Part shown: one piece after another, positions 1,123 to 17,291 of the stretch
Position numbering within the stretch: position 1 is the first letter of the stretch
Layout: the number at the start of each line of letters is the position of its first letter
Origin: Candidatus Campbellbacteria bacterium
Lineage (GTDB): Bacteria > Patescibacteriota > Minisyncoccia > Phycocordibacterales > JABAAK01
Reading direction: 5' to 3'
NCBI GenBank assembly: GCA_028817035.1
Contig: JAPPQH010000010.1
Location: 11,546 to 75,545, forward strand
DNA: 64,000 nucleotides
Position numbers and translations under genes: made by a program
Notes under the pieces: model-generated
What the model saw: the letters and a program-made list of their open reading frames with translations, nothing else
Database searches by the model: none
Told to the model about the DNA's origin: nothing

Positions 1123-1716
1123 TCACCACCTACCCCAAGCGCGATAGACAGTCCAAAGAAGAGCAAGGACGGATACTGTCAGTTGAATGGTTGTAATTGT
1201 GTTGTAAAAGATTAACTCTTTAATTCCTCCAAACTCTGGAGAAATTGAATACATTAGGTGTAGGTAAGTGAAAAGCGAAAGAACTGAAACTATTTTATAA
1301 AACCAAACCCTGGCATTTTCTCTTTTCGTTGTAGCAAAAAGAAATGCAAGTATAAAAAACAAATATGGTAATAAAACAATAAACCAAAACACTATCGGCG
1401 AATTACCAGAACTTAAATGTAAATCATATTCTACTCCAAAATAATTCTCTCCAAAAAAAATAACAGATACCCAAGCCAGTAAGAAAATTGCCAACAAAAC
1501 TTTTATTAATTTATTTGTCTTTTCTGGGGAAGAAAATCTATAAATCAAAACAAACAATGAACCAACTAAAAGCGGTAGTGTTAGAGATTGGAGTAACAAA
1601 GTCGGTGCATAAAACATGACAGATATGAGAACCAGCAAAGGAATAGCCGCCAATACATCTATCACATTTTTAACAACTCTTGAATTCATATATATATTAT
1701 ACACACAACCACTCAT
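1123..1716 (-). CDS. hypothetical polytopic membrane protein
   Basis: 197 aa, 5-6 hydrophobic segments, no conserved motif recognised. Confidence 0.45.
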   Translation of the reverse strand: MSGCVYNIYMNSRVVKNVIDVLAAIPLLVLISVMFYAPTLLLQSLTLPLLVGSLFVLIYRFSSPEKTNKLIKVLLAIFLLAWVSVIFFGENYFGVEYDLHLSSGNSPIVFWFIVLLPYLFFILAFLFATTKRENARVWFYKIVSVLSLFTYLHLMYSISPEFGGIKELIFYNTITTIQLTVSVLALLWTVYRAWGRW

Positions 1717-1953
1717 CCCCTGTCAAGCACGCAAAACCTGCTTGACATTAAGCCAGTAATTTATGCTTTTATTCTCTAACAAGTACTTATATAGGTGACA
1801 ATCAGAAAAGTTTAAAGGCAAAGATAGTTTATATAAACTATCCGAAAAAACTTTTTTGTTTTAGGAAGATGAGGAGGAGAAAGGTTTTTTCTTGGATAAT
1901 GACTAGAATCAATATTGAATATTGAGTTCGCGCTTCGCGCTCACACTATTTTC

Positions 1954-2838
1954 ACCTTATCTCCCCTTATTATCGGGGGCGACAGAAGTTCTAACCGCCT
2001 TATCTCCCCTTATTATCGGGGAGATAATACAACCACCGCGCCTTATCTCCCCTTATTATCGGGGTAGTTGTAATCTCACTGGGCCTTATCTCCCCTTATT
2101 ATCGGGGGGCCACAAACCAGCACGGGCCTTATCTCCCCTTATTATCGGGGCTCCTTTCTGACTTTGTCGCCTTATCTCCCCTTATTATCGGGGGGATGCA
2201 TTCTGCCCCTCGCCTTATCTCCCCTTATTATCGGGGTCGCTCGCATTCTATAATGCCTTATCTCCCCTTATTATCGGGGAAGCGTCAACACCCCCAGGCC
2301 TTATCTCCCCTTATTATCGGGGCGCAAAAGATAAAGACATGCCTTATCTCCCCTTATTATCGGGGATTTTACGCTTACAACAAGCCTTATCTCCCCTTAT
2401 TATCGGGGGGTTATAAAAGGCATCTCGCCTTATCTCCCCTTATTATCGGGGAGTGTCATATCATGACTAGCCTTATCTCCCCTTATTATCGGGGTGAGAT
2501 AATCCCACGGATGCCTTATCTCCCCTTATTATCGGGGAGTTAGTCCTTCGTTTTCGCCTTATCTCCCCTTATTATCGGGGTATATTCTCTCAGAATCGGC
2601 CTTATCTCCCCTTATTATCGGGGCAGGATTATATCGACCTCGCCTTATCTCCCCTTATTATCGGGGAAATACGATTACCGACATGCCTTATCTCCCCTTA
2701 TTATCGGGGACATCTTCAAAAGAACACGCCTTATCTCCCCTTATTATCGGGGTGCTCTTTTTGTATTCATGCCTTATCTCCCCTTATTATCGGGGTTTTC
2801 AATTTTTAAGGTTGCCTTATCTCCCCTTATTATCGGGG
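1954..2838. CRISPR. CRISPR array: 21 repeats of GCCTTATCTCCCCTTATTATCGGGG (25 nt) with 20 spacers of 18 nt, period 43 nt
   Basis: Repeat copies start at 1955+43k (k=0..20) by direct reading. Repeat contains internal palindrome CCCC-N8-GGGG. The base preceding the repeat is a instead of g at the 1955-side copy and at the 2384 copy. Short repeat and 17-19 nt spacers are characteristic of Cas12d/CasY arrays. Confidence 0.95.
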
Positions 2839-2951
2839 AGTTTATCCGATTTCCCCATATAAATACTTGTTAAAGAACAAAATTAACAAACAAAAGTCAT
2901 ATCAAAACACCAATGTTTATTAACTACTATTTAATTATAGCATACTTTTAT
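2839..2951 (-). promoter_or_regulatory. putative CRISPR leader / array promoter (AT-rich, TATAAT on minus strand)
   Basis: 113-nt AT-rich spacer between cas1 stop and first cas-proximal repeat; minus strand reads ...gtatgcTATAATtaaatag. Degenerate terminal repeat lies at the opposite (1955) end. Confidence 0.35.
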
Positions 2952-3995
2952 TTACTTGTCTCTATCGGTGTTGATAACCCAATCCTTTGAAACTCTTTCT
3001 GCTTCAATGTTAAAGTCGGTAGGTCCAGCAGAGCGACCATACAACTTATACCCAACTTTTTTAGGACGACCTCCAAGTGGCCTTCCGGGGATCGGAACAA
3101 TAAACTTTTTGGCATCGCCCAATAAATACGCCCTCAGTGCCAATATGTTACCATGCAAAAGTTCTTGAAAAGTAACTATCTGCCTTGTTTGATGTGTATA
3201 AACTTTTTTATCAAGTAAGTCTTCTACGCCCTTAGTCGCAAATGCAACCAAATTTTTGTTATCCCTGTTAGTTTTATGTACTCCTTTTATTGTTTCAAAA
3301 ATATTTTTTTCAATATAACCTCTGTAGGGTTCCATAAGATCATATACAAGTGATGGATAGTCAGTTGGTATATGCATAAATCCGTGGTATGGACTCATTT
3401 TGTGATAGGTTATATATCTCAAAATCACACCGCTGATTAACTTGGACACTGCGTTTAACACAGAGCTTATAACATTTTTTCTATTTCTTCTTTCTGATTC
3501 TTTGTTTCCCAATTTTGCATAATACTTCTTCCAATACCTCACCGCATGAAGTGCTTCTATAGATCTTAAGTCCTTTACACTTTTTGCAAATTTTATCTTA
3601 TGTATTGTGTGTTTATTGTTGGGCAGAAGCCACTCCATTGATTTCACTTTTGCTAACAATAATTTCCTTGCTATATGTAAAGATTTTATTTTATTTTCTC
3701 TGAAAATAATTTGTTTAGTCAGTATGTCATCTATATTCGTTGTTGTGGTACCAGTAATCCATATAGCCTTTGACATATGCCTTCTATGTATGCAAATTGG
3801 TATGTTATATCTAATGCATAACTGTAAAAACTCTTCATCCAAAGGACATACAGCACCATAAAATAAAATTGAGGAAATTCTACTCCATGGAATATCAAGC
3901 ACTCCGCCCTTGAATTTAAAAGTAGCCTTGTCTTTTTGCCAAGAAATATCGCTAGTATATGGCAACCAAATTGGTATTTTACTTTTTCCTGGCAT
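2952..3995 (-). CDS. cas1: CRISPR-associated endonuclease Cas1
   Basis: 347 aa; conserved Cas1 catalytic region SPYHGFMH...LVYDLMEPYR; directly flanks CRISPR array; 17-nt overlap with upstream effector gene. Confidence 0.9.
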   Translation of the reverse strand: MPGKSKIPIWLPYTSDISWQKDKATFKFKGGVLDIPWSRISSILFYGAVCPLDEEFLQLCIRYNIPICIHRRHMSKAIWITGTTTTNIDDILTKQIIFRENKIKSLHIARKLLLAKVKSMEWLLPNNKHTIHKIKFAKSVKDLRSIEALHAVRYWKKYYAKLGNKESERRNRKNVISSVLNAVSKLISGVILRYITYHKMSPYHGFMHIPTDYPSLVYDLMEPYRGYIEKNIFETIKGVHKTNRDNKNLVAFATKGVEDLLDKKVYTHQTRQIVTFQELLHGNILALRAYLLGDAKKFIVPIPGRPLGGRPKKVGYKLYGRSAGPTDFNIEAERVSKDWVINTDRDK

Positions 3996-6900
3996 TTTTA
4001 CTTATAATATCATTAAAGGATTTTCTTGGCATGTTTAACTTTACTGGTTTGAAACCCATATCTTTGTATTTGTTCATTTCATCTTGGAAATTGGCTTTTG
4101 TATTTTTCTTATCTTTCTTAAACCAAGCCCTTAAACCTATAATCAAAGATGCTTGTATATCTGCATCTGATATATGTCCACAGCCCTTAAATGGGCAAAC
4201 AAAAATTCCAGAGTTTCCTGCTGTCTCGTAAAACTTTTTCCGTTCCTTGTTATCATATTTCTTGAAGAAAGCGTCTTTTATAACTGGATGGTCTTTAAAA
4301 GACTCGCTGTTTAATTTAACATTCTTTTCATTTTCTACATCAAAGATTGGAGGTCTTGCAAAATCTTGTATAGATTTTATTAGTTCTTTTGTTTTCATAG
4401 CACCCTTCTTTTTATCTCCCTCCAAAAAGCCATACACTTCTTGCCCATTATCTATAGTTGCTTTTATATATTTACTATTATTGATTCTTTCCCACTCCCA
4501 AGAAACTTCTTCTGTTTCCTTCTTTTTGCTTGCTTTCTTTTTAGACTTTTCATTTTGCATATCTCTTATAGTGTACAAACTTCTCCAACATTCTGTACAT
4601 ACATAACTTGTCCCGTAAGCACTTTTATGAACACCAATAAAGTTACTAGTGCCCCATACATGCTCTCTTGTCATTTTTTCTGACGGATTATTTTCTGTTG
4701 CAACATCCGCAGTTTTTACTGTTTTATATAAAGCAGTCAATCGAGAGCTACCCGTCTCAAAGTTACTTATTGAAAGCTCATAACTTGGTATCGCATTATA
4801 CCGAACAGCCACATCATGTATACGGTTTTTTAATGAACTACTTATTGATTTTCTGATTTCTGCAAGTTTTGTATTAGAGGATGTAAAGGTCGCTGCTTTT
4901 TGTTTTTCTTTGTTCTCTTTGAATCGCTCTCTGACTTTCCTTATTCCTTTTTCATAATCAAACCAAGAAAATAAAAGTTTTTTATTTTTAATATCTATTA
5001 AAGAAAAGGCGAGACCATATTCACCAACATCTATGCCAAGATACCTATTCCTTTCTTCAAGCTCTGCCTTTATTTCTTTTTGTCCCAAATTCTTTTTTAC
5101 CTTTAACTCAAATGGAATAGAGATAAAGATTTTGGAACTACCCCTCACTTTATTAAAAACTGGCTGATCTTTTGACCAGTCAATTTGATAATCTTCTTCT
5201 CCTATAAATGAATAATCAGAAATTTTTACATCAAAATCCTTATTAATAGAATTGCCAAAAAATGGAGAAGATTCGTTCAAAAATTGAGTTTGGTATTTTG
5301 AACTTTGGATCTTAAAACCACAATTAATATTTTCAACTGGTATAAAGTTCTTCTTCTTTGATGGGTCCTTTGTCTTATCTGATAATTGTAAAAAGTCTGT
5401 TTCTGTTTTTGTTTTAGATAAGTTTTCCTTTTTGGCTATATACCAAAGATTATCTTTTTTATCAAAAACCAGAGGAAAATCAGCACCAGAACCCATGGGC
5501 TGAACAACATATCTTTCTTTAAATATTTTTTTGCTTAATATATTTAGCGTTCCCTTCATTTCTGCAAAGAAATATCTTTGCAAAATTGTATTAATTTTAT
5601 CTCCATCCAATGTCTTACCCTCTTGTAATTTTAGATATTCCCCAGCTTCTTCAAAACGTTTAGTTTTAGAGAAATTTTTTAGAAAATCACTTTTACTGAC
5701 ACTTATCTTTTTATAGTAAGTAATTAATCCTATTCTAATCTTTTCAAGTTCAATAGCATCAATATGTTCTCTTATATTTTCTAATTTTCTTTTCTTAAAA
5801 TCAGGTCTCAGTAAATCAATTAATTTTGGTATTGAATCAAAAATTTCTTCTATATTTTTACCTAATTCTAACTCTTTCCAATTTCCTCTTCTCTTATACT
5901 TTGTAAAAACTTCTTTCTCCTTAAGTCCTTTAATATCAATGCCTGTTGTTGTTGTGATTGCCTTTTGAATTATATTCTGTGCCCAAGGGGTTGAATCTTT
6001 GTATAGATTGTTTAAAGTATCAAATCTTCTTAACAATGTAATTTTTTCATTCTCAACATCTTCATCTTCAATTTTCCTTAATTCTAAATCATTATCTAAC
6101 ATCTTTCTTAATCGTTCAATTATATCCAAACCATCTTTGTACATTTCTTTTGAATTCAATATTTTTGTCAAGTGCTCTTTTTTTCTTATACCAGGAAAAG
6201 TTGGAAATTTTGGCAATGTCGCAAAAACTGATTTATATTTATTTCTCTCTTTCTTCAATTCTTTTTCTTCCATCTCTGGATTTTGTGCTTGTATAAATTT
6301 ATTTAATTCAACACGAAGATCGCCTAAAATTCTTGAGTATATATCAAATGATTTCGCCAATAAATTAGTTTTTATTGATTTATTTAGATTTATCAACTCA
6401 TTTGTTAAATTTTTTAATCTATCAATATTTTTATTATTTTTTTCTTTGATAATATCAAGCAAAGTTTTTAAATGCTCTTCATGTCCAGGAACCCCTACAT
6501 CTTTGCCATCCTTATCTTTTTTGGTATATCCAAACAAAACATGGTCTATGTCTTCTTTTTGATTTTCTGTATTACTTATCCAAGAACTTAATTTACCGCC
6601 CATCGTTGTTCTATATTCTGCCCAACTTTTTGCCATATATGGTGTTTCGGGTAATAATTTTGCACGGGACGATAACCATTTTAATCTTTTTTCTAATTCT
6701 TTTTCTTTACCCTTCCATAAATCAGAGTTAATATTTAATATCATTTCTTTTGCTTTATCTATATCACCTTCACGAACCGGTTTAAGGAATTTATTAAAGG
6801 CATAACTTAGTGGGTTATGATTGGTTGCCATAGCCAAAAAAGAGATTGGGTTTTCGCCATACTTTTTCCTTACTCTGTCTATTAAATCCTGTTCTTTAAC

Positions 6901-7650
6901 ATCTTCTTTGGCAAACTCAAAATCTGGGTGTATAAACAACGCACCTTCATTATTACCTTTTTCTATAAAACTAACTCCAAAATTTTTTGACCAAAATTCT
7001 TTTTGTTTATCTGCTTTTATAGTCTCGCCATCCGACTTACAAATCCCTTTGTATATCTGTTCTGTGTATTTCCTAACCTCTTTTCTATTTTTTATATATA
7101 TACTGTGCTTAAAAATACCTGTTTTACCCTTTAATTTTTCTTCATTTTTATCTTTTGATAAAATTCCTTCAATTCTATCTTGATTACCATAAAATATATT
7201 TTTTATTTCTTCTTCTCCAGATTTCTTTCTTACACCGCCAGAGAGCCTTATTTTATTATTAAAAGAATCAAAATCTATTAAATCAAAGAATTTTAGATCT
7301 TTCTTCTTCATATCCTTCTTGACCTCATTATTAGCACTGTCATCTATAAAACTCTTTATTTTAAATACATTGTCATGAAACACACTTCCAACTCTTAGAA
7401 AATCAAGATATAAATCAAATAATGAATATTCTCCTCTGCCATCTTTCAATGTTGTTGCATTAAACTGACCAACTTGACCTTCATAATCACATCTTATCTG
7501 ATTCATAAGATTTTCTGTTTCTGATTCATCCTTAAATACAATTGGAAATTTTATTGTTCTGATTGCCTTACCACCAGTATATTTTAACCTTCTTAGATGA
7601 AGTTTATAACCTGTCATTCCCTTGTATTTTCTTGATCGTTTTGCTTTCAT
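3979..7650 (-). CDS. cas12d: type V-D CRISPR effector Cas12d (CasY)-like nuclease
   Basis: 1223 aa. RuvC-I LGIDVGEYGLAFSLID (D874, codon at 5029-5031), RuvC-II ...IPSYELSISNFE (E958), zinc ribbon CTECW (C1018/C1021) ... CPFKGC (C1152/C1157), RuvC-III SDADIQASLIIG (D1162/D1164). N-terminus GYKLHLRRLKYTGGKAIRTIKFP and motif WAEYRTTMGGKLSSW resemble published CasY N-terminal/helical motifs as recalled. Operonic with cas1 and short-spacer array. Confidence 0.85.
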   Translation of the reverse strand: MKAKRSRKYKGMTGYKLHLRRLKYTGGKAIRTIKFPIVFKDESETENLMNQIRCDYEGQVGQFNATTLKDGRGEYSLFDLYLDFLRVGSVFHDNVFKIKSFIDDSANNEVKKDMKKKDLKFFDLIDFDSFNNKIRLSGGVRKKSGEEEIKNIFYGNQDRIEGILSKDKNEEKLKGKTGIFKHSIYIKNRKEVRKYTEQIYKGICKSDGETIKADKQKEFWSKNFGVSFIEKGNNEGALFIHPDFEFAKEDVKEQDLIDRVRKKYGENPISFLAMATNHNPLSYAFNKFLKPVREGDIDKAKEMILNINSDLWKGKEKELEKRLKWLSSRAKLLPETPYMAKSWAEYRTTMGGKLSSWISNTENQKEDIDHVLFGYTKKDKDGKDVGVPGHEEHLKTLLDIIKEKNNKNIDRLKNLTNELINLNKSIKTNLLAKSFDIYSRILGDLRVELNKFIQAQNPEMEEKELKKERNKYKSVFATLPKFPTFPGIRKKEHLTKILNSKEMYKDGLDIIERLRKMLDNDLELRKIEDEDVENEKITLLRRFDTLNNLYKDSTPWAQNIIQKAITTTTGIDIKGLKEKEVFTKYKRRGNWKELELGKNIEEIFDSIPKLIDLLRPDFKKRKLENIREHIDAIELEKIRIGLITYYKKISVSKSDFLKNFSKTKRFEEAGEYLKLQEGKTLDGDKINTILQRYFFAEMKGTLNILSKKIFKERYVVQPMGSGADFPLVFDKKDNLWYIAKKENLSKTKTETDFLQLSDKTKDPSKKKNFIPVENINCGFKIQSSKYQTQFLNESSPFFGNSINKDFDVKISDYSFIGEEDYQIDWSKDQPVFNKVRGSSKIFISIPFELKVKKNLGQKEIKAELEERNRYLGIDVGEYGLAFSLIDIKNKKLLFSWFDYEKGIRKVRERFKENKEKQKAATFTSSNTKLAEIRKSISSSLKNRIHDVAVRYNAIPSYELSISNFETGSSRLTALYKTVKTADVATENNPSEKMTREHVWGTSNFIGVHKSAYGTSYVCTECWRSLYTIRDMQNEKSKKKASKKKETEEVSWEWERINNSKYIKATIDNGQEVYGFLEGDKKKGAMKTKELIKSIQDFARPPIFDVENEKNVKLNSESFKDHPVIKDAFFKKYDNKERKKFYETAGNSGIFVCPFKGCGHISDADIQASLIIGLRAWFKKDKKNTKANFQDEMNKYKDMGFKPVKLNMPRKSFNDIISKNARKK

Positions 7651-7698
7651 ATCAGTTTATTTTAGCACAAAGACTTTTATTTTGGAATAAAGCGATAT

Positions 7699-7735
7699 AA
7701 AAAAAAAGCCCCGAGGCTCGAAGAGCACTCGGGGC
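7699..7735 (-). terminator. Rho-independent terminator for gene 7761..8234
   Basis: GC hairpin gccccgag-N12-ctcggggc (7708-7735) followed on minus strand by T9 (A-run 7699-7707 on plus). Confidence 0.7.
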
Positions 7736-7760: not shown

Positions 7761-8234
7761 TTATTCACCATCCTGTGTTGAGTCAGCATCCTGCATCAAC
7801 TTCATAAACTCGTCTCGCGCAACCTCGTTTTGTTCCTGGTTGCGTTCACTATAACCTTCGTTTGCAGCATCTCGCAAATCACTCTCTGCAGGACCGATTT
7901 CAGGTGTTGGAGCTTTGTCATACTCTCGGACTTGCTCCTCAAGCAGAGGATTTGCGGGCTGTATCACCGTTTTGGGTCGATACCCCATTTCTACCTGTGA
8001 GTAGATAATGGCTGCCGCAAAAAACACCATCCAGAGACCGATGCACCACTTGTTTGACCAAAGTACATCGCCGACTGGAGACGCTCTTTCGCTTCCGTCA
8101 ACCATTTTGGGGTCTGCTTGCTCCACTTGGTTCGCCATCCTGCGCCAAATAGCAACTGCCGAAACAATCACTACAAGCCACAGAACAACTTTGATAAGAG
8201 CAAACCCAAAGACTGAGATGGCAGTGATATCCAT
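7761..8234 (-). CDS. hypothetical membrane protein (2 TM, acidic C-terminus), co-operonic with SPFH protein
   Basis: 157 aa; higher-GC than genome background; 13-nt gap to upstream SPFH gene. Confidence 0.5.
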   Translation of the reverse strand: MDITAISVFGFALIKVVLWLVVIVSAVAIWRRMANQVEQADPKMVDGSERASPVGDVLWSNKWCIGLWMVFFAAAIIYSQVEMGYRPKTVIQPANPLLEEQVREYDKAPTPEIGPAESDLRDAANEGYSERNQEQNEVARDEFMKLMQDADSTQDGE

Positions 8235-8246
8235 AACATACCTCCT

Positions 8247-9200
8247 TTACTTTTCTTGGTTCGATTCTGCCATGGCGTTGTTGAGTGTGCCCATAAGGAC
8301 TGCGGGATTCTTAAATCCCTCGAAGGGCATTACAAAGACACGACCATCTGGATTTTTGGCGAGTGTCTCCATAATCTTCAACCAACGCTGAGTGACAAAT
8401 GGTTCACTCACACTGTCAGCAAGTACGCGATTGACAAGCGCTTGAGTTTCTGCCTCCTTGAGGTCAACCTCCTGTTGTTTTTTAGCAACTTCAAGGGCAG
8501 CATCTGCCTGTTTCAAAGCTATCTGCTTTTCAGCTTCAGCTTTTTGAATCCCGATTTCGCGTTCTTTTCTGTTTTCCTGAGCAGTGACAACGATTTGGGG
8601 TGGCTGAATATCAGCCAAACCAAACCTTATGGTCGTGATAGGAGTCGATTTCAAACGCTCACGAATATCCTTCACAAGCATAGCAGAAATTTCGCTTCGG
8701 TTTTCCATCACCTGTGCGATACTGTGCTCGGCAAGGATTGAGCGGACTGCTTCACGAACGACCGGCTGTCCATAGGTGTTGTAGACCTTTGCCATTGAAA
8801 TCAGTCGGACACGATTGCTTGGTTGTTGGTCGGCAGTCACACGACTAAAGACCTTTTCAACATTTTCTTTGTCAGAGCTGATTGCAAACACGCCACGCAC
8901 ATCCACATTGAGGTTCAGTTGGTCCTTTGGCATAAAGATTACCATCTGTTCCAAAACCGCATGGTCTGATGCCTCAACGAGGATGAGAGAGTCACAGTTC
9001 CAACAAAAACCTTCCAGCCTAAACTTTGAAGGCTGTATGATCTTTTCTTGAAGACCAGACTCAGTCGAGAGTTTGCCGACATGGGCAGGTGGCACTTCAA
9101 CTCTCTCGCCACACCCCCCCATGGCAAACATGCCCAGCAAAATTGCCATCATTGCAATAGTTTTTTTCACGAGTTTTCCTCCTCTGTGTAAAAGGTTCAA
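8247..9200 (-). CDS. SPFH/band-7 (stomatin/prohibitin-like) lipoprotein
   Basis: 317 aa; signal peptide with lipobox-like AMGGC; band-7 core and long Ala/Glu/Lys coiled-coil (EREIGIQKAEAEKQIALKQADAALEVAKKQQEVDLKEAE); GC-rich. Confidence 0.7.
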   Translation of the reverse strand: MNLLHRGGKLVKKTIAMMAILLGMFAMGGCGERVEVPPAHVGKLSTESGLQEKIIQPSKFRLEGFCWNCDSLILVEASDHAVLEQMVIFMPKDQLNLNVDVRGVFAISSDKENVEKVFSRVTADQQPSNRVRLISMAKVYNTYGQPVVREAVRSILAEHSIAQVMENRSEISAMLVKDIRERLKSTPITTIRFGLADIQPPQIVVTAQENRKEREIGIQKAEAEKQIALKQADAALEVAKKQQEVDLKEAETQALVNRVLADSVSEPFVTQRWLKIMETLAKNPDGRVFVMPFEGFKNPAVLMGTLNNAMAESNQEK

Positions 9201-9363
9201 AACATGGGCTTTCTCAAGCCCAATGCTATTTTATAGAATAGCATATATATTGAAAAATATCAAGTACCCATATTTATGGCAAAAACCCTTTTTGCAACTC
9301 TTCGGTTTGGTGGCACAAAGGCACTTTGTGTGGGTGGAGTTGTTGGTCTTATGTTATGAAAAA

Positions 9364-9921
9364 TTATATTGATAGTTTTTTTCTTGCGGTTTCAAATAGA
9401 GTTAGAGTTTCGTCAGACAAAATGAAAGGTATGAAACGCTCTTTGTCTTCTTCGGCGAGTCTCGGAAGTATTTCAACGCTCCACACTTCAAAACCTAATA
9501 TCTCCCCCTCTTCTACGACAAGCGCCTCAATAGGTTGTGTGTGTGTGTATGCGTATTGCGCTCTGATGGTGTTGTTTATTAAACCTGTAGTTGTGTCTAT
9601 GGAACGCTCTGCGCTTTTAGTAAGAAAAATTAGTTCGCTTGAGTCAATGTCAATTCCTGTTTCTTCTCTGCATTCTTTGACGGCTGTTTCCTCGTAGGAC
9701 ATCCCTGGTTCAACATGACCACCCACACTGGCATCCAGTCGGTCTGGATATGTGTCTTTGTTTTTTGCTCTGTGTTGAAAGATAATTTCACCTCTCGGAG
9801 TAAAAAACCAAATATGCACTTCTCTGTGGAGTAGTCCCTCTTTGTGTATCTTTGTGCGATTTTCAAGACCAATAACTTCGTCTTGCTCGTTCACAACTTC
9901 AAGCATCTCATTATTGTTCAT
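9364..9921 (-). CDS. Nudix hydrolase
   Basis: 185 aa; Nudix box GGHVEPGMSYEETAVKECREETGI (Gx5Ex7REUxEExGU). Confidence 0.85.
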   Translation of the reverse strand: MNNNEMLEVVNEQDEVIGLENRTKIHKEGLLHREVHIWFFTPRGEIIFQHRAKNKDTYPDRLDASVGGHVEPGMSYEETAVKECREETGIDIDSSELIFLTKSAERSIDTTTGLINNTIRAQYAYTHTQPIEALVVEEGEILGFEVWSVEILPRLAEEDKERFIPFILSDETLTLFETARKKLSI

Positions 9922-9988
9922 TAGGGTAATTTTAACACGGAAATTTTTACCTCTTAACGAAAAGAAATTGCTCTGTGGGGAAACCCGA

Positions 9989-10399
9989 TCACTCGGCGAG
10001 ATTGAGTTGCCACGAGACGCCGTAGCGGTCTTCTACCCACACAAACAATTTACTAAAGCCGTAGTTGCCTAAGGGCATGTGTTCCCTGCCTTCATTACAG
10101 GGTTCTTTGTGGATATGTCTGATTTCATCTTCACTGTCACACTCAATAAAAATGGAGGTTGCGGGTGTAAATGAGAATTTGTGGTCTGCGGGGTTTTCTG
10201 ATGCCATGTACTCAGTGCCAGCGAGTGTAAACAGTGCAGTTTTGACTTGTCCTGCGACGCCCATTGGCTCATCGCCACTCCACCTTTTAATGCTCTTGAT
10301 TTCTGAGTTTGGTATAAGTGATGTGTAAAATTTTAGCGCTTCTTCTGCCTTACCACATTTATCACCAACAAACATAAGGAATGTTTTTGTTTTTTGCAT
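9989..10399 (-). CDS. VOC-family (PhnB / 3-demethylubiquinone-9 3-methyltransferase-like) protein
   Basis: 136 aa; C-terminal YGFSKLFVWVEDRYGVSWQLN typical of PhnB-like glyoxalase-fold proteins. Confidence 0.7.
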   Translation of the reverse strand: MQKTKTFLMFVGDKCGKAEEALKFYTSLIPNSEIKSIKRWSGDEPMGVAGQVKTALFTLAGTEYMASENPADHKFSFTPATSIFIECDSEDEIRHIHKEPCNEGREHMPLGNYGFSKLFVWVEDRYGVSWQLNLAE

Positions 10400-10485
10400 A
10401 GGGATAATTATATACTATATTTTTTTAACAAACATTGTCTGCCTGTTTTGACTTTTGTGACTTTTATAAATAAACAGCGACCTTG

Positions 10486-10557
10486 TGACCCTACGGGGAA
10501 TCGAACCCCGATTTTCGCCGTGAAAGGGCGATGTCCTGGCCGTTAGACGATAGGGCC
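10486..10557 (-). tRNA. tRNA-Glu (anticodon UUC)
   Basis: Reverse complement folds as GGCCCTA/TAGGGTC acceptor, anticodon stem TCGCC/GGCGA with loop CTTTCAC, T-arm CGGGG-TTCGATT-CCCCG; CCA not encoded. Confidence 0.8.
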
Positions 10558-10612
10558 AATGATAAGATTATACTCTAAAATTATAAACCCTTCCCAGTTA
10601 TGGGAAGGGTTG

Positions 10613-10685
10613 TGACCCAGCGGGGATTTGAACCCCGATTTTCGCCTTGAAAGGGCGATGTCCTCACCGGTTAGACGACAGGGTC
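10613..10685 (-). tRNA. tRNA-Glu (anticodon UUC), second copy with divergent acceptor stem
   Basis: Anticodon arm TCGCC-CTTTCAA-GGCGA; T-arm CGGGG-TTCAAAT-CCCCG; acceptor GACCCTG/CTGGGTC has one T-T mismatch in the canonical register (alternative register GTGACCC/GGGTCAC is perfect but gives non-canonical junctions). Confidence 0.6.
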
Positions 10686-10740
10686 ACGGTTGAAATTGTA
10701 AACCCCTCCCATTTGCGGGAGGGGCTGTATGCAAGGTGAA

Positions 10741-10902
10741 TCACTTCCTGCGGAGTTCCTTGTTGCGTTCCAAACCAAAAGCGACCTCTGGCGGTAGCGG
10801 TAAATCAGAAGGAAGTCCGCATTGATCACAAAAATCCACCGTGGGTTCGTTTTCCTTCAAGCATGTGGAACACTTCCAACCTTCTGCGCCTGCAAGACAC
10901 AT
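10741..10902 (-). CDS. small zinc-ribbon protein (53 aa), unannotated in ORF track
   Basis: Translates MCLAGAEGWKCSTCLKENEPTVDFCDQCGLPSDLPLPPEVAFGLERNKELRRK with CxxC...CxxC; GGAGG 8 nt upstream of ATG; followed by hairpin cccctccc-N6-gggagggg (10702-10728). Confidence 0.35.
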   Translation of the reverse strand: MCLAGAEGWKCSTCLKENEPTVDFCDQCGLPSDLPLPPEVAFGLERNKELRRK

Positions 10903-11052
10903 ATCAGTACCTCCGTTGATTTTTGCAAAAGAACTTTGGGGTTTAACCCATTTTTATATGCTATCATATCTCCCAAAATATGTCAAGTATAAGAAAAGCC
11001 GATAATCAAGCCCATTACCTTAACCTAAATCTTTTAGTATAATTACCATGTT

Positions 11053-11126
11053 GGGCGATTAGCTCAGTTGGCTAGAGCGCTCCCTTGACGTGGGAGAGGT
11101 CACAGGTTCGAATCCTGTATCGCCCA
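11053..11126 (+). tRNA. tRNA-Val (anticodon GAC)
   Basis: GGGCGAT/ATCGCCC acceptor, D-arm GCTC-AGTTGGCTA-GAGC, anticodon arm CTCCC-TTGACGT-GGGAG, T-arm ACAGG-TTCGAAT-CCTGT. Confidence 0.85.
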
Positions 11127-11174
11127 CATTCTCATATTTACATTTACACTTAATTATCATATTATATTATTTAT

Positions 11175-11792
11175 ATGAATAAACAAAAAATTCTATTGGT
11201 TTTAGTTGCTTTGGTTGTCGGAGTTGTGGGCGGTTTTGGCGGTGCTTATATGTTTGAATCTTTGGGTGATAAAAACCAAAACAAATTGATAAAAGATTAT
11301 TACTTGGTTGAGAATGCTGTTGGTGTGAGTCCGCATGGCTTGAGATTGAGGATGGATAAGGGTGATCAGACATTTATACTTGTTGATTTAAGAAGTCAGG
11401 AGGAATATGAAAGAGAGCACATCACGGGTGCGATAAATATCCCTGCATATAGTGATAAGTTTACAAGTGCGTATCATGAGGTGGAGAGGATTGTTGGTTC
11501 TTTTAGGGAGTTGCCAGAAGACAAGGAGATAATAACATATTGCTATAGTGTTCCGTGTATGACGAGTCGCAGAATTGGAAAGCTACTTGTTGAAAATGAT
11601 ATTTATGTTAAGCATCTTAATATAGGTTGGAATGAGTGGAGATATTTTTGGAATTTATGGAATGTTGAGCATGAACTTGCAGATACAAGTCCAGAGCAAT
11701 ATGTAACAGAGGGTCCCGAGCCAGGTGTCCTTGAAAATGCAAATCCTTTCCTTATTGACACAGGATGCACGGCAGGTGAATTTGGGTGTTAA
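11175..11792 (+). CDS. rhodanese-domain sulfurtransferase (membrane-anchored)
   Basis: 205 aa; N-terminal TM; rhodanese fold FILVDLRSQEEYEREHITGAINIP with active-site Cys loop ITYCYSVPCMTS. Confidence 0.75.
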   Translation: MNKQKILLVLVALVVGVVGGFGGAYMFESLGDKNQNKLIKDYYLVENAVGVSPHGLRLRMDKGDQTFILVDLRSQEEYEREHITGAINIPAYSDKFTSAYHEVERIVGSFRELPEDKEIITYCYSVPCMTSRRIGKLLVENDIYVKHLNIGWNEWRYFWNLWNVEHELADTSPEQYVTEGPEPGVLENANPFLIDTGCTAGEFGC

Positions 11793-11798
11793 GGTTTT

Positions 11799-12971
11799 AT
11801 GAGGTTGTTCGCTATTGAGACAAGTTGCGATGAAACTGCTGTTTGTTTTTTGGATGCGGTAGAGAAAGATGGTGGCGATCACAAGATAGAGGTTCTGTCT
11901 CATATATTAATCTCACAGGCAGAGAAACACGCTGAATATGGTGGCGTGTTCCCTACTCTTGCGAAACGCGAGCATGCTAAAAATCTTGTTCCCATCACTT
12001 TGAAAGCGCTTGAAGAGGTGGGTGTAGAAAAGGTTGGCGACAGGGTTATGGATAAAAATGATGAGGAGAAAATTGGAAAAATTCTTGAACGGGAGGAGGA
12101 GTTAAAGGAAAGTTTTATTGAGGAAATTGCGAAGTGTGGGGTGCCTGATGTGGATGCTATCGCTGTTTGTGTCGGTCCTGGTTTAGAGCCAACCCTTTGG
12201 GTGGGTATCAATTTTGCAGAGGCGCTTTCTGTTTTGTGGGATAAGCCGATAATACCTGTGAATCATATGGAGGGACACATTGTGTCTTCATTTTTTGATA
12301 ACAATACTTTGAAAAAATTTCCTATGCCGTTGCTTTCGCTTTTAATTTCTGGAGGACATACAGAGCTTGTCCTTTCAGAGAAACAAAATGATTATAGAAA
12401 AATTGGTTCCACGAGAGATGATGCTGTTGGTGAGAGTTTTGACAAGGTGGCGAGGCTTCTTGGTCTTTCTTATCCAGGGGGTCCTGAGGTGGCAAGGTTG
12501 GCAAGTCTATCACGCACAAGGGCTAAAAAGATTGATGTGAGATTTCCACGCCCAATGATAAAAGATGATGGTTTTGATTTCTCTTTCTCTGGTCTTAAAA
12601 CAGCGGTCAGGTATTTTGTTGAGGGAAAAAATTTAACTGATGCGGAGAAAGAAGATGTTGCTTGTGAGTTTGAGGATGCAGTCACAGAGGTCCTTGTGAC
12701 AAAGACAAAAATGGCTATTTTGAAACACCGACCGAGTGCGCTTGCCGTTGGCGGTGGCGTGGCTGCAAACAAGAATATAAAGGAGGCTATGACAAAGATG
12801 GTGGCGGAGCTTGATTTCCCTGTTTCGCTCCACATACCAAAACCAAAAGATGCGACTGACAACGCGATAATGATTGGTCTGTCGGGTTATCTCAACTCAA
12901 TGCAGAAAGATTATGGAATGGCTGTGTATGAGATAAGGGCTGACAGTTCCCTCTCATATCTAAAAAACTGA
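11799..12971 (+). CDS. tsaD: tRNA N6-adenosine threonylcarbamoyltransferase TsaD (Kae1/Gcp family)
   Basis: 390 aa; N-terminal IETSCDETAV and metal-binding region, 6-nt gap after rhodanese gene. Confidence 0.9.
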   Translation: MRLFAIETSCDETAVCFLDAVEKDGGDHKIEVLSHILISQAEKHAEYGGVFPTLAKREHAKNLVPITLKALEEVGVEKVGDRVMDKNDEEKIGKILEREEELKESFIEEIAKCGVPDVDAIAVCVGPGLEPTLWVGINFAEALSVLWDKPIIPVNHMEGHIVSSFFDNNTLKKFPMPLLSLLISGGHTELVLSEKQNDYRKIGSTRDDAVGESFDKVARLLGLSYPGGPEVARLASLSRTRAKKIDVRFPRPMIKDDGFDFSFSGLKTAVRYFVEGKNLTDAEKEDVACEFEDAVTEVLVTKTKMAILKHRPSALAVGGGVAANKNIKEAMTKMVAELDFPVSLHIPKPKDATDNAIMIGLSGYLNSMQKDYGMAVYEIRADSSLSYLKN

Positions 12972-13017
12972 GATTTACAAATTAGGAAAAACTAAATAAA
13001 TTGTATATTATATAGAT

Positions 13018-15216: not shown

Positions 15217-15259
15217 ATTGTGATACAATTTTTAATAAGTAAGATTTTTTAAAATAAAT

Positions 15260-15742
15260 ATGAAAAATAAAAAAAGCAAAAAGAAAAAAGGGTTCAGTTT
15301 TTTTGAGTTGTTGACTGGGACAAACGAAGACGAACTGGAAGAGGAACTAAGTGATGAAGAAGAAGTAGAAGGGGGTGAAACAAGCAGGGCTTTACCTCAA
15401 AATGAAGATGAGGAGCGACACTTGCCGGTTGATTTGATAAACACGCCAGACGACATAATAATCAGAGCAAATCTTGCAGGGATTAACCCCGACAATATAG
15501 ATCTTTCAGTATCAAGAGAGGTTATTATAATTACCGCGAAAAATGCAAGAAAGCATGAAGAACAAGAATGTGATTATTTTTATCAAGAATTATATTGGGG
15601 AACTTTATCAAGGACTATTGTTCTGCCACAGGAAATAGAGGTAGAAGATGTTACTGCAGATACAAAGAATGGGATGCTTACCATTGTGCTTCCAAAAATA
15701 GATAAAGATAAAAAGACAAAGGTTAGGGTTTCTAAGAGATAA
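15260..15742 (+). CDS. Hsp20/alpha-crystallin family small heat-shock protein
   Basis: 160 aa; acidic N-terminus then alpha-crystallin domain LPVDLINTPDDIIIRANLAGINPDNIDLSV...GMLTIVLPK. Confidence 0.85.
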   Translation: MKNKKSKKKKGFSFFELLTGTNEDELEEELSDEEEVEGGETSRALPQNEDEERHLPVDLINTPDDIIIRANLAGINPDNIDLSVSREVIIITAKNARKHEEQECDYFYQELYWGTLSRTIVLPQEIEVEDVTADTKNGMLTIVLPKIDKDKKTKVRVSKR

Positions 15743-15751
15743 AAATAAAAA

Positions 15752-15794
15752 GGCATCGCCTCCAAAACCACTTGTGGTTTTTTCAGCGATGCCC
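15752..15794 (+). terminator. nested-hairpin terminator after hsp20
   Basis: ggcatcgc...gcgatgcc outer stem enclosing aaaacca-cttg-tggtttt followed by T-run. Confidence 0.55.
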
Positions 15795-15808
15795 GCCCTT
15801 GCGTGCGG

Positions 15809-16054
15809 CTATCCGCTTATGGGATTCTCCTGCAAGAGTTGTTCGCAGTAGGCTGCGACCTGAGGGTCCCTCTTTCGCATCTCCTGCCTATCGTCGGAAG
15901 ACAGTGCTCTATATGTGCGAAGCAACTCCGTGTCCTTCTGGGGTCTTATCAACCACAAAAGAAATGTCTCCATGCTAACTGAACGGTCGTACTCTATGGG
16001 CTCTACAGCCACACTAGAATCCATCCCTTCTGGGATGTGCTCTACAGTTTTCAT
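15809..16054 (-). CDS. small hypothetical protein in GC-rich patch (start moved to RBS-supported ATG)
   Basis: ORF track 15809..16099; internal Met (MKTVEH...) preceded by AAGGAGG at 7 nt and a TTGACA -35 element upstream; GC content well above background. Confidence 0.4.
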   Translation of the reverse strand: MKTVEHIPEGMDSSVAVEPIEYDRSVSMETFLLWLIRPQKDTELLRTYRALSSDDRQEMRKRDPQVAAYCEQLLQENPISG

Positions 16055-16448
16055 ACCTTTTTCCTCCTTTTGAAGAATGAAAAGTTCAGTGATGGACAAA
16101 CTGCCATCTTCTATAATGTTACTACAAACTCTTTAATTTGTCAAGTAGTTCCAAAAATGAAAAGATCCAAGCGGAATGCTTGGCTCTTTGGTTCAACTGC
16201 AGGACGAGAAAATGCAGACCGCAGCATCAGCGATATAAACGGTTGTTATCAAAGCGATGACGGTAATCAAGGACTTGTCAAAATCGTCAAAACCTGAGTC
16301 TTCTGAGGTATGTTTTTCATTCATACCATTTACCCTCCTGTTTTGAAAAGATTATTCGGCAACGAGTTGCCTTCTATTATTAAGTATAGGGTATATAAAT
16401 GTTGGTGTCAAATGAAAAGAGCCAAGCAAATGGAATAGATTGGAATGT

Positions 16449-16859: not shown

Positions 16860-16868
16860 GGATTTTGG

Positions 16869-17283: not shown

Positions 17284-17291
17284 CTTGATTG

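What the first reader, a model, noticed from the sequence alone, without database searches (positions are those of the whole stretch)
1954..7650. Compact type V-D (Cas12d/CasY-like) CRISPR-Cas locus: effector + cas1 + short-spacer array
The 1223-aa minus-strand ORF has the Cas12 hallmarks in order: RuvC-I (GIDVGEYG, D874), RuvC-II (E958), a CxxC...CxxxxC zinc ribbon, then RuvC-III (SDADIQAS). Its N-terminus (GYKLHLRRLKYTGGKAIRTIKFP), the WxxYRxxxxGKLSSW motif and the FARPPIFD block match what I recall of published CasY proteins. It overlaps cas1 by 17 nt and is followed by a 21-repeat array with 25-nt repeats and 18-nt spacers, and no other cas gene is visible in the window. Read on the minus strand the repeat is CCCCGATAATAAGGGGAGATAAGGC, which shares the 3' ...GGGGA.ATAAGGC pattern I recall for CasY.1 repeats. 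Cas12d is a small, CPR-restricted family, so a new ortholog with an intact adaptation gene and array is valuable.
Basis: partly seen in the sequence, partly recalled or inferred. Interest (0 to 1): 0.9.

Follow-up and report, generated by a model that had tools for sequence, protein, structure and literature searches.

The report
Cas12d (type V-D) CRISPR locus
This is a complete, apparently intact type V-D (Cas12d/CasY) CRISPR immune locus of a candidate-phyla-radiation bacterium; GenBank already annotates its effector and cas1 genes as Cas12d and Cas1, so the locus itself is ordinary, but its unannotated helper RNA (scoutRNA) and a conserved leader-trailer RNA helix around the array are worth a note.

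Summary
There are 21 repeats of 25 nt with 18-nt spacers at 1954-2838. cas1 lies at 2952-3995(-). A 1223-aa ORF at 3979-7650(-) overlaps cas1 by 17 nt.

The ORF matches NCBI's Cas12d equivalog model end to end (1054 bits, cutoff 250). It aligns over its full length (30% identity) with a protein I identify as CasY.1. D874 and E958 fall on the residues shown experimentally to be catalytic there.

The interpretation (type V-D) is supported, but the locus is not new. The exact protein is GenBank MDD9867988.1, named Cas12d, from a Campbellbacteria MAG. The family now has at least 145 clusters at 50% identity.

I add two items. First, the scoutRNA lies at 1805-1856(-), 3' of the array. It has the same two-stem fold and GCCUU dock as the published CasY.1 scoutRNA, and both stems covary across seven loci. 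Second, a ~40-nt helix pairs the leader end (2842-2882) with the sequence just 3' of the scoutRNA (1767-1809). It recurs in five divergent loci, and its mismatches are mostly G·U in the sense RNA. The helix could tether the scoutRNA to the first repeat or form a processing stem; this is untested. No protospacers were found.

The parts
3979..7650 (-). cas12d (casY) effector gene, 1223 aa. RuvC-I D874, RuvC-II E958, zinc-ribbon cysteines C1018/C1021 and C1152/C1157, RuvC-III D1162.
   Evidence: NCBIfam NF033951 Cas12d scores 1054 bits against a cutoff of 250, full length. PADLOC Cas12d gives 5.9e-136. Identity to CasY.1 (P0020) is 30% over the full length, E 2e-119, with D874 and E958 on its catalytic positions. 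Motif positions were verified. The sequence is identical to GenBank MDD9867988.1.
2952..3995 (-). cas1, 347 aa, overlapping the cas12d stop by 17 nt. It is the only adaptation gene found.
   Evidence: Pfam Cas_Cas1 6.4e-24 and TIGR00287 77.4 bits against a cutoff of 71.7. The motifs containing E147, H208 and D219/E222 align with the matching motifs of Cas1 in PDB 6opm. GenBank MDD9867987.1.
2934..2962 (-). Putative promoter of the pre-crRNA: GAGACA, 17 nt, TG-n-TATAAT (extended -10), overlapping the cas1 stop codon about 95 nt upstream of the first repeat.
   Evidence: Best sigma-70-like match in 1650-3050, 10 of 12 positions plus the TG. The motif TGCTATAAT recurs at the same place in L002 and L003, and as variants in L004, L005 and L007. 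Function is inferred.
2839..2933 (-). CRISPR leader (AT-rich). Its last ~40 nt form the 5' arm of the leader-trailer helix.
   Evidence: Position lies between the promoter and the first repeat. The leader-proximal block TTTAACAAGTAT.TATA.GGGGAA...ATAAAC is conserved in relatives.
2842..2882 (-). Leader arm of a long-range inverted repeat / putative RNA helix. It ends 3 nt before the first repeat.
   Evidence: the repeat finder reports arms 1767-1795 and 2854-2882, 29 nt, 86% complementary. A local alignment extends this to about 41 nt, score 40 against a shuffle maximum of 33. The arrangement is conserved in L002-L005, with 95.5% of cells paired.
1954..2838 (-). CRISPR array transcribed on the minus strand: 21 repeats (CCCCGAUAAUAAGGGGAGAUAAGGC) and 20 unique 18-nt spacers. 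The terminal repeat at 1954-1978 is degenerate (final C changed to U).
   Evidence: Orientation follows from the published KbCas12d crRNA (repeat then spacer), from relatives whose arrays have the same sense as cas12d, and from the degenerate repeat lying at the leader-distal end.
1805..1856 (-). scoutRNA core: P1 AAAAGUUU/AAACUUUU, 5' internal loop UUUCG, P2 hairpin GAUAGUUU-AUAU-AAACUAUC, 3' internal loop UUUGCCUUU. The dock GCCUU (1815-1819) is complementary to the repeat 3' end AAGGC.
   Evidence: Architecture and conserved loops match the published KbCas12d scoutRNA1. Across 7 loci, 97.7% of cells are paired and 15 of 16 pairs change on both sides, with 0 of 500 shuffles reaching this and slid controls at 30-45%. 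The MFE fold of the isolated sequence gives both stems. This is the only covariance-model hit in the 64-kb window (E 0.004), though the window sequence was in the training set. The model also found untrained scouts in L125 and L128. Expression was not tested.
1767..1809 (-). Trailer arm of the leader-trailer helix. It starts inside the 3' strand of scoutRNA P1 and is complementary to 2842-2882.
1923..1943 (-). G+C-rich hairpin (UGAGCGCGAAGCGCGAACUCA) 10 nt after the last repeat, with no U-run. Role unknown.
   Evidence: Read from the sequence. It forms in the MFE of the mini-transcript.

Best explanation
The region is a canonical, apparently functional type V-D CRISPR-Cas system in a Candidatus Campbellbacteria (CPR/Patescibacteria) genome. 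Its order on the minus strand is cas12d, cas1, promoter and leader, 21-repeat array, scoutRNA.

Proposed mechanism, step by step:
1. Cas1, without Cas2 or Cas4, inserts 18-nt spacers at the leader-proximal repeat (inferred from gene content).
2. The array is transcribed from an extended -10 promoter at the cas1 stop. Transcription probably reads through into the scoutRNA, because no promoter-like or terminator-like site separates them (inferred).
3. The scoutRNA folds into two stems and presents GCCUU, which pairs with the AAGGC at the 3' end of each repeat. The fold and complementarity are shown by sequence and covariation; the function is taken from the CasY.1/CasY15 literature.
4. Cas12d binds the scoutRNA:crRNA pair and uses the 18-nt guide to find DNA next to a 5'-TA/TG PAM (literature; not testable here). 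It cuts with a single RuvC site formed by D874, E958 and D1162. These residues are shown to align with experimentally validated positions; activity is inferred.
5. In addition, the last ~40 nt of the leader can pair with the ~40 nt directly 3' of the scoutRNA. In a co-transcript this would close the whole array-scoutRNA unit and place the scoutRNA next to the first, newest repeat. The complementarity and its conservation are shown; its role is hypothetical.
For: - Cas12d equivalog HMM scores 1054 bits against a cutoff of 250, end to end; PADLOC Cas12d 5.9e-136.
- Full-length alignment to P0020 (30% identity, E 2e-119) places D874 and E958 on P0020 D828 and E914. These correspond to KbCas12d D827 and E913, a consistent offset of one residue; their alanine mutants lack nuclease activity.
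- P0020 is identified as CasY.1 because the 87 nt upstream of its gene reproduce the published scoutRNA3 exactly.
- The RuvC and Zn-ribbon motifs are conserved in all full-length relatives.
- Cas1 exceeds curated cutoffs and keeps the E/H/D motifs.
- The array has 21 repeats, 20 identical, with 20 unique 18-nt spacers.
- The repeat shares the 5' CCCCGA...GGGG hairpin and the 3' AAGGC with relatives and CasY.1.
- The scoutRNA covaries across loci, and the covariance model found scouts it was not trained on.
- A promoter-like site lies at the cas1 stop.
- Leader-trailer helix.
- GenBank itself names the proteins Cas12d and Cas1.
Against: - Nothing here shows expression or activity.
- No protospacer was found. 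There is no self-target in the window. Four of the 20 spacers were scanned against IMG/VR; only one spacer gave hits, and those look like chance (no TA/TG flank, GC 0.43-0.55). The PAM and the targets are therefore unknown.
- The structure model of residues 780-1200 is poor (pLDDT 49.9). Its Cas12c2 and Cas12a matches (E 3e-4, TM about 0.22) are only weak support for the fold.
- Absence of cas2 and cas4 was checked only in the roughly 5 kb on each side.
- The scoutRNA alignment was registered by hand on the proposed stems, which favours the structure.
- Two close relatives (L006, L007) carry fragmented cas12d genes, so decay does occur in this clade.
Confidence: 0.93

Rival explanations
1. The effector belongs to another type V subtype, with Cas12c (V-C) the nearest, rather than V-D.
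For: Cas12c profiles hit the RuvC region weakly: NCBIfam 36 bits and PADLOC 5.4e-25. The only solved structure found by sequence is Cas12c2 7v93, E 2e-7, and it is also the top Foldseek hit.
Against: The Cas12c equivalog score is 36 bits against a cutoff of 250 and covers about 170 residues. Cas12d scores 1054 bits over the whole protein. The N-terminal 800 residues align with CasY.1. The PDB holds no Cas12d chain detectable by sequence, so Cas12c2 is simply the nearest solved relative.
Confidence: 0.01
2. The large ORF is a transposon-associated TnpB/IscB-like nuclease that happens to lie next to a repeat array.
For: Type V effectors descend from TnpB. Precomputed Pfam lists a faint PF07282 (Cas12f1-like TNB) hit on CasY.1-like relatives.
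Against: No TnpB, OrfB or PF07282 match to this protein was reported at the E<=1 threshold. At 1223 aa it is about three times the size of TnpB. It overlaps cas1, sits beside a regular array with unique spacers, and has a scoutRNA with a dock for the repeat.
Confidence: 0.01
3. The locus is a type V-D system that is inactive or decaying, or is used for something other than interference.
For: No targets were found for any spacer tested. The relatives P0004 and P0005 are truncated. The cas genes have much lower G+C (29.5% and 34.7%) than their surroundings (42.5%), which suggests a foreign origin.
Against: Both ORFs are intact and the catalytic residues are kept. Twenty of 21 repeats are identical, all 20 spacers are unique and of uniform length, and the scoutRNA, promoter motif and leader are conserved. 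Failure to find protospacers for 18-nt spacers of a CPR bacterium in current virus collections is not informative.
Confidence: 0.07
4. Sub-claim rival: the leader/trailer inverted repeat is not an RNA helix but a DNA-level feature. It could be a relic of the inverted duplication of leader plus repeat that created the scoutRNA anti-repeat, or two copies of a protein-binding or promoter element.
For: The antisense of the trailer plus scoutRNA reads like a leader end followed by ...AAAGGC, that is, leader plus the 3' end of a repeat. tracrRNA anti-repeats are generally thought to arise this way (my own knowledge). L006 lacks the feature, it is weak in L126 and L127, and L128/L129 use an 11-nt anti-repeat instead. 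The loci share ancestry, so cell counts overstate the number of independent events.
Against: Complementarity within each locus is 95.5% when G·U pairs are counted, while leader arms of different loci are only 32-84% identical. 29 of 48 pairs changed on both sides. Mismatches are G·U in the sense RNA 19 times against A·C 3 times, or 10 columns against 3 (p about 4e-4 by cells, 0.046 by columns). Pairing falls to 87.6% on the antisense strand. In all five loci with the long helix the alignment places a single unpaired trailer base at the corresponding point near the repeat-proximal end. L125, in the CasY.1 clade, has a perfect 16-nt pair with an unrelated sequence.
Confidence: 0.4

Closest known systems
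KbCas12d / CasY.1 (Katanobacteria; Burstein et al. 2017, cited from my own knowledge; Harrington et al. 2020, known here only through citing papers; bioRxiv 10.1101/2023.12.12.571249)
   Same: - Full-length homology and the same RuvC D/E positions.
- cas1 is the only adaptation gene.
- Repeats are 25-26 nt ending in AAGGC, with 17-18-nt spacers.
- The scoutRNA has the same P1 / UUUCC loop / P2 / UUU(A)GCCUU design and lies 3' of the last repeat on the crRNA strand.
   Different: - Only 30% protein identity; 1223 aa against 1125 aa.
- Gene order here is cas12d-cas1-array-scoutRNA. The CasY.1 contig shows last repeat, scoutRNA, then casY.1, the same order as array-scoutRNA-cas12d in its relatives L125-L127.
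- About 97 nt separate the last repeat from the scoutRNA here, whereas in CasY.1 the scoutRNA starts inside the last degenerate repeat.
- The repeat stem is CCCC/GGGG with an 8-nt loop, not CUCCGAAAGUAUCGGGG.
Closest relatives by sequence: unnamed ENA metagenome proteins P0002, P0003, P0004, P0005, P0008 and P0006
   Same: Protein identity is 41-52% for P0002-P0005 and P0008, and 30% for P0006. L001-L003 share the gene order cas12d-cas1. L002 and L003 also show the array and scoutRNA downstream; the L001 contig ends after cas1. They share the CCCCGA...GGGG.GA.AAGGC repeat, the TGCTATAAT promoter motif, the scoutRNA and the leader-trailer helix.
   Different: No relative exceeds about 52% identity. 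Spacer content is unrelated. L006 has the array upstream of cas12d and lacks the helix. The cas12d genes in L006 and L007 are fragmented.
Cas12c (type V-C) with its scoutRNA/tracrRNA
   Same: Nearest other subtype and nearest solved structure (7v93/7v94). It uses short 3-5-nt dock-anchor pairing between the helper RNA and the repeat, and has short (about 18 nt) guides.
   Different: The Cas12c profile scores far below its cutoff (36 against 250 bits). The N-terminal half is unrelated at sequence level apart from one W..YR....GGK..SW block.
Other RNA duplexes that organise crRNA maturation: the Cas9 tracrRNA:repeat duplex cut by RNase III, and the type II-A leader RNA that prioritises the first spacer (Liao et al. 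2022; both cited from my own knowledge, not checked here)
   Same: A long duplex involving the helper RNA's flank would tie the helper RNA to the pre-crRNA. It would favour the leader-proximal unit and would be a natural RNase III substrate.
   Different: Here the duplex would be anti-leader:leader rather than anti-repeat:repeat. It lies in cis at the two ends of one transcript and encloses the whole array. No experiment supports it yet.

Membership tests
Type V-D CRISPR-Cas (Cas12d/CasY) | Effector matches the curated Cas12d family model above its cutoff, over its full length | tested here: met
   NF033951 scores 1054.3 bits against a cutoff of 250, with profile positions 1-1180 of 1180 matched. 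PADLOC Cas12d 5.9e-136.
Type V-D CRISPR-Cas (Cas12d/CasY) | Single C-terminal split RuvC domain with the catalytic D...E...D | tested here: met
   D874, E958 and D1162 are present and conserved in all full-length relatives. D874 and E958 align with CasY.1 residues whose D827A and E913A mutants are nuclease-dead.
Type V-D CRISPR-Cas (Cas12d/CasY) | Zinc-ribbon (target-nucleic-acid-binding) insertion between RuvC-II and RuvC-III | tested here: inconclusive
   CxxC (1018) and CxxxxC (1152) are present, and cysteine pairs lie at the aligned positions in relatives and CasY.1. The AF2 model is too poor (pLDDT 49.9) to show the fold.
Type V-D CRISPR-Cas (Cas12d/CasY) | Minimal locus: cas1 only, no cas2 or cas4 | tested here: met
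   cas1 is present. The eight flanking genes are RadC, SPFH, NUDIX, TsaD and similar. The rest of the 64-kb window was not scanned with Cas profiles.
Type V-D CRISPR-Cas (Cas12d/CasY) | Short repeats (about 25-26 nt) and unusually short spacers (17-19 nt) | tested here: met
   25-nt repeats, and all 20 spacers are 18 nt. The literature values appear.
Type V-D CRISPR-Cas (Cas12d/CasY) | scoutRNA with a short dock complementary to the repeat | tested here: met
   The element at 1805-1856(-) carries GCCUU complementary to the repeat's AAGGC. Its fold and loops match the published KbCas12d scoutRNA, and both stems covary. Transcription was not tested.
Type V-D CRISPR-Cas (Cas12d/CasY) | 5'-TA/TG (TR) PAM and scoutRNA-dependent dsDNA cleavage | not testable with these tools
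   No credible protospacers were found. Biochemistry is needed.
Type V-D CRISPR-Cas (Cas12d/CasY) | Host in the Candidate Phyla Radiation | tested here: met
   GenBank labels the MAG Candidatus Campbellbacteria, which the taxonomy places in the Parcubacteria / Patescibacteria group. Relatives come from Paceibacterota, Spechtbacteria and the Patescibacteria group.
Type V-C (Cas12c) | Effector matches the Cas12c family model above its cutoff | tested here: not met
   NF033950 scores 36.2 bits against a cutoff of 250, covering residues 807-980 only.
TnpB / IS200-IS605 OrfB nucleases | OrfB/TnpB Pfam domains and a transposon context | tested here: not met
   No such Pfam family was reported at the E<=1 threshold. 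The gene overlaps cas1 and neighbours an array. Transposon ends were not searched for.

The most novel reading that the evidence does not exclude
In many type V-D loci, including this one, the pre-crRNA and the scoutRNA may be one transcript. Its 5' leader end and 3' trailer would pair into a ~40-bp helix that abuts scoutRNA stem P1 on one strand and ends 3-6 nt before the first repeat on the other. Such an anti-leader:leader duplex would act as a natural split single-guide scaffold. It would hold the scoutRNA next to the newest repeat-spacer unit, giving spacer prioritisation, or provide an RNase III-type processing or stabilising stem, or both. This bears on how Cas12d crRNAs mature, which reviews list as unknown or unconfirmed. 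I found no description of it in the papers I could search. I could not read Harrington et al. 2020.
Probability: 0.4. Interest if true: 0.6.

Novelty: new member of a known kind. Interest (0 to 1): 0.3.

Why it matters
As a Cas12d locus it adds little. The kind is well described, the protein is already in GenBank under the correct name, and well over a hundred comparably diverged sequences detected with this query exist (145 clusters at E<=1e-30).

Its practical value is as a complete parts list for a divergent ortholog, only 30% identical to CasY.1. The list covers effector, Cas1, repeat, 18-nt guide length and, newly located here, the scoutRNA, so the system could be reconstituted directly.

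The comparative by-product may matter more. The scoutRNA fold is supported by covariation across clades. A conserved leader-trailer helix also suggests a concrete, testable model for how V-D pre-crRNA and scoutRNA are produced and assembled, a step still listed as unknown.

Tried and rejected
- Protospacer search. No spacer matches the window outside the array with 2 or fewer mismatches. Exact scans of IMG/VR with spacers 4, 5, 8 and 13 gave hits only for spacer 5. Those 4 hits (two are the same phage) have GC/CC 5' flanks instead of TA/TG, no second spacer match, and G+C of 0.43-0.55. At 18 nt this is about what chance gives, so no PAM could be inferred.
- More relatives. Protein-pattern scans of JGI metagenome contigs and IMG/VR found none. 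A repeat-pattern scan of metagenome contigs gave only isolated single matches and no arrays (loci from L008 on can be ignored). The word-indexed protein search returned only six proteins even with a profile. The exhaustive HMMER scan was needed to see the family.
- Structure. AF2 on residues 780-1200 with a 5-sequence alignment gave pLDDT 49.9. Foldseek ranks Cas12c2 and Cas12a first but with TM about 0.22. I do not use this as evidence for the fold.
- Rfam has no family matching the scoutRNA or the repeat at gathering thresholds. It reports only RNase P RNA and five tRNAs in the window.
- MAFFT alone misaligned the scoutRNAs. I used a hand-registered, N-padded alignment instead, which biases the result towards the structure.
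- I looked for a separate scoutRNA promoter or a terminator between the array and the scoutRNA and found none.
- Harrington et al. 2020 (PMC8196889) is not in the held library. What it says is known here only through citing papers.
- The preprint's statement that the scoutRNA lies 'upstream of the array' is not borne out by the CasY.1 contig. There the scoutRNA follows the last degenerate repeat.


Full report
OBSERVATION

A 25-nt unit (GCCTTATCTCCCCTTATTATCGGGG on the + strand) occurs 21 times between 1954 and 2838 with a constant period of 43. Twenty copies are identical, the copy at 1954 has one mismatch, and shuffled sequence gives none. The 20 spacers are all 18 nt and all different. On the minus strand, a 347-aa ORF (2952-3995) and a 1223-aa ORF (3979-7650) overlap by 17 nt. 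The quoted motifs and residue numbers are correct: D874, E958, C1018xxC, C1152xxxxC and SDADIQAS at 1161.

WHAT IT IS

The large protein matches NCBI's Cas12d/CasY equivalog model from the first to the last profile position, at 1054 bits against a curated cutoff of 250. The Cas12c model reaches 36 bits over the RuvC region only. PADLOC agrees, with Cas12d at 5.9e-136. Pfam has no family for it, and no TnpB/OrfB match was reported.

The small protein is Cas1: Pfam 6.4e-24 and TIGR00287 above its cutoff. It has the E147, H208 and D219/E222 motifs aligned to a solved Cas1.

An exact-sequence look-up shows both proteins are already in GenBank as MDD9867988.1, 'type V CRISPR-associated protein Cas12d', and MDD9867987.1, 'CRISPR-associated endonuclease Cas1'. 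They come from a Candidatus Campbellbacteria MAG on a 96.8-kb contig. The lineage is Patescibacteria/Parcubacteria.

COMPARISON WITH THE CHARACTERISED ENZYME

An exhaustive HMMER scan of 1.84 billion cluster representatives found 249 relatives at E<=1e-3 and 145 at E<=1e-30. I did not separate Cas12d from Cas12c-like proteins in that count. Only P0003, P0004 and P0008 there, plus P0002 from the word-indexed search, exceed 40% identity. Of the remaining full-length relatives, none exceeds about 36%.

One representative, P0020 (1125 aa), is CasY.1/KbCas12d. The 87 nt upstream of its gene reproduce the published KbCas12d scoutRNA3 exactly. The window protein aligns with it over the full length (30% identity, E 2e-119).

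D874 and E958 align with P0020 D828 and E914. These correspond to the D827A and E913A nuclease-dead mutants of the preprint, with a consistent offset of one residue. The same residues, the Zn-ribbon cysteines and the RuvC-III motif are conserved in all full-length close relatives.

The PDB holds no Cas12d chain detectable by sequence; the nearest is Cas12c2. An AlphaFold model of residues 780-1200 was too poor to use (pLDDT 49.9). Its best Foldseek matches were nevertheless Cas12c2 and Cas12a.

ORIENTATION AND EXPRESSION SIGNALS

The published KbCas12d crRNA is repeat (…GGGGAUAAAGGC) followed by spacer. The window repeat has that sense on the minus strand (CCCCGAUAAUAAGGGGAGAUAAGGC, 16 of 25 positions identical). 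Relatives have arrays in the same sense as cas12d. The one degenerate repeat lies at the cas-distal end.

The best promoter-like site in the region is GAGACA, 17 nt, TG-n-TATAAT at 2962-2934(-), overlapping the cas1 stop. The same TGCTATAAT sits at that position in L002 and L003, with variants in L004, L005 and L007.

An intrinsic-terminator-like hairpin plus T-run at 7706-7723(-) separates cas12d from the upstream gene. Flanking genes are housekeeping (RadC, SPFH, NUDIX, rhodanese, TsaD), and none is cas2 or cas4.

THE scoutRNA

Type V-D needs a scoutRNA. The published KbCas12d scoutRNA1 is AAAGGG-uuucca-[GUUU-uuaacu-AAAC]-uuuaGCCUUcca-CCCUUU. Its GCCUU is complementary to the repeat's 3' AAGGC.

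In the window, on the crRNA strand 97 nt past the last repeat, lies AAAAGUUU-uuucg-[GAUAGUUU-auau-AAACUAUC]-uuuGCCUUU-AAACUUUU (1855-1806). Equivalent elements follow the arrays of L002, L003, L004, L006 and L007.

I aligned these elements in a hand-registered alignment of seven sequences that includes the published one.
- 97.7% of cells form standard pairs.
- 15 of 16 pairs show changes on both sides.
- No shuffle out of 500 reaches this.
- Sliding the partner strand drops pairing to 30-45%.

Single-sequence MFE folds give both stems for window, L002, L003 and L006.

A covariance model built from this alignment has one hit in the 64-kb window (1805-1856, E 0.004; by construction). It also finds elements it was not trained on:
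- directly upstream of cas12d in L125 (E 0.027) and L128 (E 0.064);
- after the array in L005 (E 0.73).

In the CasY.1 contig the scoutRNA begins inside the last degenerate repeat and ends just before the casY.1 start codon. The arrangement 'array then scoutRNA, same strand' is therefore shared with the characterised system. The preprint's word 'upstream' does not fit that sequence.

A CONSERVED LEADER-TRAILER HELIX (not part of the original finding)

The repeat finder reports an inverted repeat bracketing the array plus scoutRNA. In the window the arms are 2854-2882 and 1767-1795 (29 nt, 86% complementary). The same layout occurs in L003 (29 nt, 86%) and L004 (33 nt, 85%).

Local alignment of the leader against the reverse-complemented trailer extends this to about 40 nt in window, L002, L003, L004 and L005. 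Scores are 40-46, against shuffle maxima of 24-33. The leader arm ends 3-6 nt before the first repeat. In the window the trailer arm starts at, or inside, the 3' strand of scoutRNA P1; in the other loci it follows the scoutRNA closely. In all five loci the alignment places a single unpaired trailer base at the corresponding point.

Across the five loci:
- 95.5% of 202 cells pair, and 29 of 48 pairs changed on both sides. Slid controls give 42-52%.
- Leader arms of different loci are only 32-84% identical.
- The mismatches are strand-specific. There are 19 G·U against 3 A·C in the sense RNA, or 10 columns against 3.
- Pairing is 95.5% in the sense RNA and 87.6% in the antisense.
- Several G·U pairs sit at the same column in three or four loci.

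The nominal p-values are about 4e-4 by cells and 0.046 by columns. The loci are related, so the cell-based value overstates the independence of the events.

In MFE folds of mini-transcripts (leader, two repeats, last repeat, trailer), all five loci form the long helix. Where I traced the pairing, the AAGGC of the first repeat sits on the scoutRNA's GCCUU.

Other loci vary.
- L125, whose protein is 57% identical to CasY.1, has a one-spacer array. Its leader ATACCAATAAAATCGG recurs as a perfect inverted copy right after the scoutRNA.
- The feature is weak in L007, L126 and L127 and absent in L006.
- In the L128/L129 clade the scoutRNA is not next to the array. It is instead preceded by an 11-nt anti-repeat.

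My reading is that an RNA helix forms in a pre-crRNA-scoutRNA co-transcript. It would tether the scoutRNA to the newest repeat or serve as a processing or stabilising stem. The rival is a DNA-level relic of the inverted duplication that created the anti-repeat, or a pair of protein-binding sites. I put the RNA-helix reading at about 0.4-0.6 and the specific functional model at about 0.4. Reviews list Cas12d pre-crRNA processing as unknown or unconfirmed.

WHAT COULD NOT BE SHOWN

No protospacers were found, so the PAM and the targets are unknown. Expression, processing and cleavage are inferred from homology. The cas genes are much poorer in G+C (29.5% and 34.7%) than the neighbourhood (42.5%). 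This fits horizontal acquisition but was not pursued.

VERDICT

Novelty is low. This is a divergent but typical member of a known subtype, already deposited and correctly named by an automatic pipeline. I give 0.3, and that mainly for the located scoutRNA and the conserved leader-trailer helix, which give a testable handle on V-D guide-RNA biogenesis.

Noticed in passing
window 1805-1856 (-): An unannotated scoutRNA lies 3' of the array. It has a two-stem fold with a GCCUU dock, is homologous in design to the published KbCas12d scoutRNA, and both stems covary across seven loci.
   Followed up: yes
window 2842-2882 (-) with 1767-1809 (-); also L002, L003, L004, L005, L125: The last ~40 nt of the leader are complementary to the ~40 nt directly 3' of the scoutRNA. 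The feature is conserved across loci whose proteins are only about 30% identical. Both arms change together, mismatches are mostly G·U in the sense RNA, and the alignments place one unpaired trailer base at the corresponding point in all five loci.
   Followed up: yes
window 2952-7650 versus 8000-20000: cas12d (29.5% G+C) and cas1 (34.7%) are much more AT-rich than the adjacent 12 kb (42.5%) and the window as a whole (38.8%). This suggests the locus is a horizontally acquired island.
   Followed up: partly
window 1923-1943 (-): An isolated G+C-rich hairpin (UGAGCGCGAAGCGCGAACUCA) lies 10 nt after the last repeat in an otherwise AT-rich spacer region, with no U-run. It could be a processing or pause signal.
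   Followed up: no
window 7706-7723 (-) and 7651-7705: A terminator-like hairpin plus T9 ends the upstream gene, leaving about 55 nt for a cas12d promoter. A TGCTAAAAT (extended -10-like) motif ends 10 nt before the ATG, which implies a very short 5' UTR. No full sigma-70 match was found.
   Followed up: partly
window 61262-62114 and 63808-64000: A 60-nt tandem repeat has about 14 copies at the first site and resumes at the window end. It is probably a protein with 20-aa repeats.
   Followed up: no
window 25316-25653 (-); tRNAs at 10486-11126, 16787-16859 and 17213-17283: Rfam finds bacterial RNase P RNA (class A, 136 bits) and five tRNA genes. Three of the tRNAs lie within 3.5 kb of the cas locus.
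   Followed up: no
L125 5860-5990: This CasY.1-like locus has a one-spacer mini-array. Its second repeat is truncated and fused directly to the scoutRNA, and a perfect 16-nt leader/trailer inverted repeat flanks it, making it look like a natural single-guide arrangement.
   Followed up: partly
L128 5905-5990, L129 5875-5975, L132 array 10017-10397: A separate Cas12d clade has the repeat C.(T/G)CGAAAGTTAGGAACTAAAAGGC. In L128 and L129 the scoutRNA sits upstream of cas12d, away from the array, and is preceded by an 11-nt anti-repeat (AGTTCCTAACT). This is more like a tracrRNA. L132 shares the repeat type only; its scoutRNA was not located.
   Followed up: partly
L006 (P0004, 900 aa) and L007 (P0005, 1012 aa): The closest relatives' cas12d genes are split or truncated within long contigs. 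This could be real decay or frameshift errors in long-read assemblies. The L007 scoutRNA has a duplicated P2 hairpin, one copy followed by a mutated dock.
   Followed up: no
L002 12691-12704: An orphan repeat 3' end (GAGAAGGC) lies 6 nt after the last full repeat.
   Followed up: no
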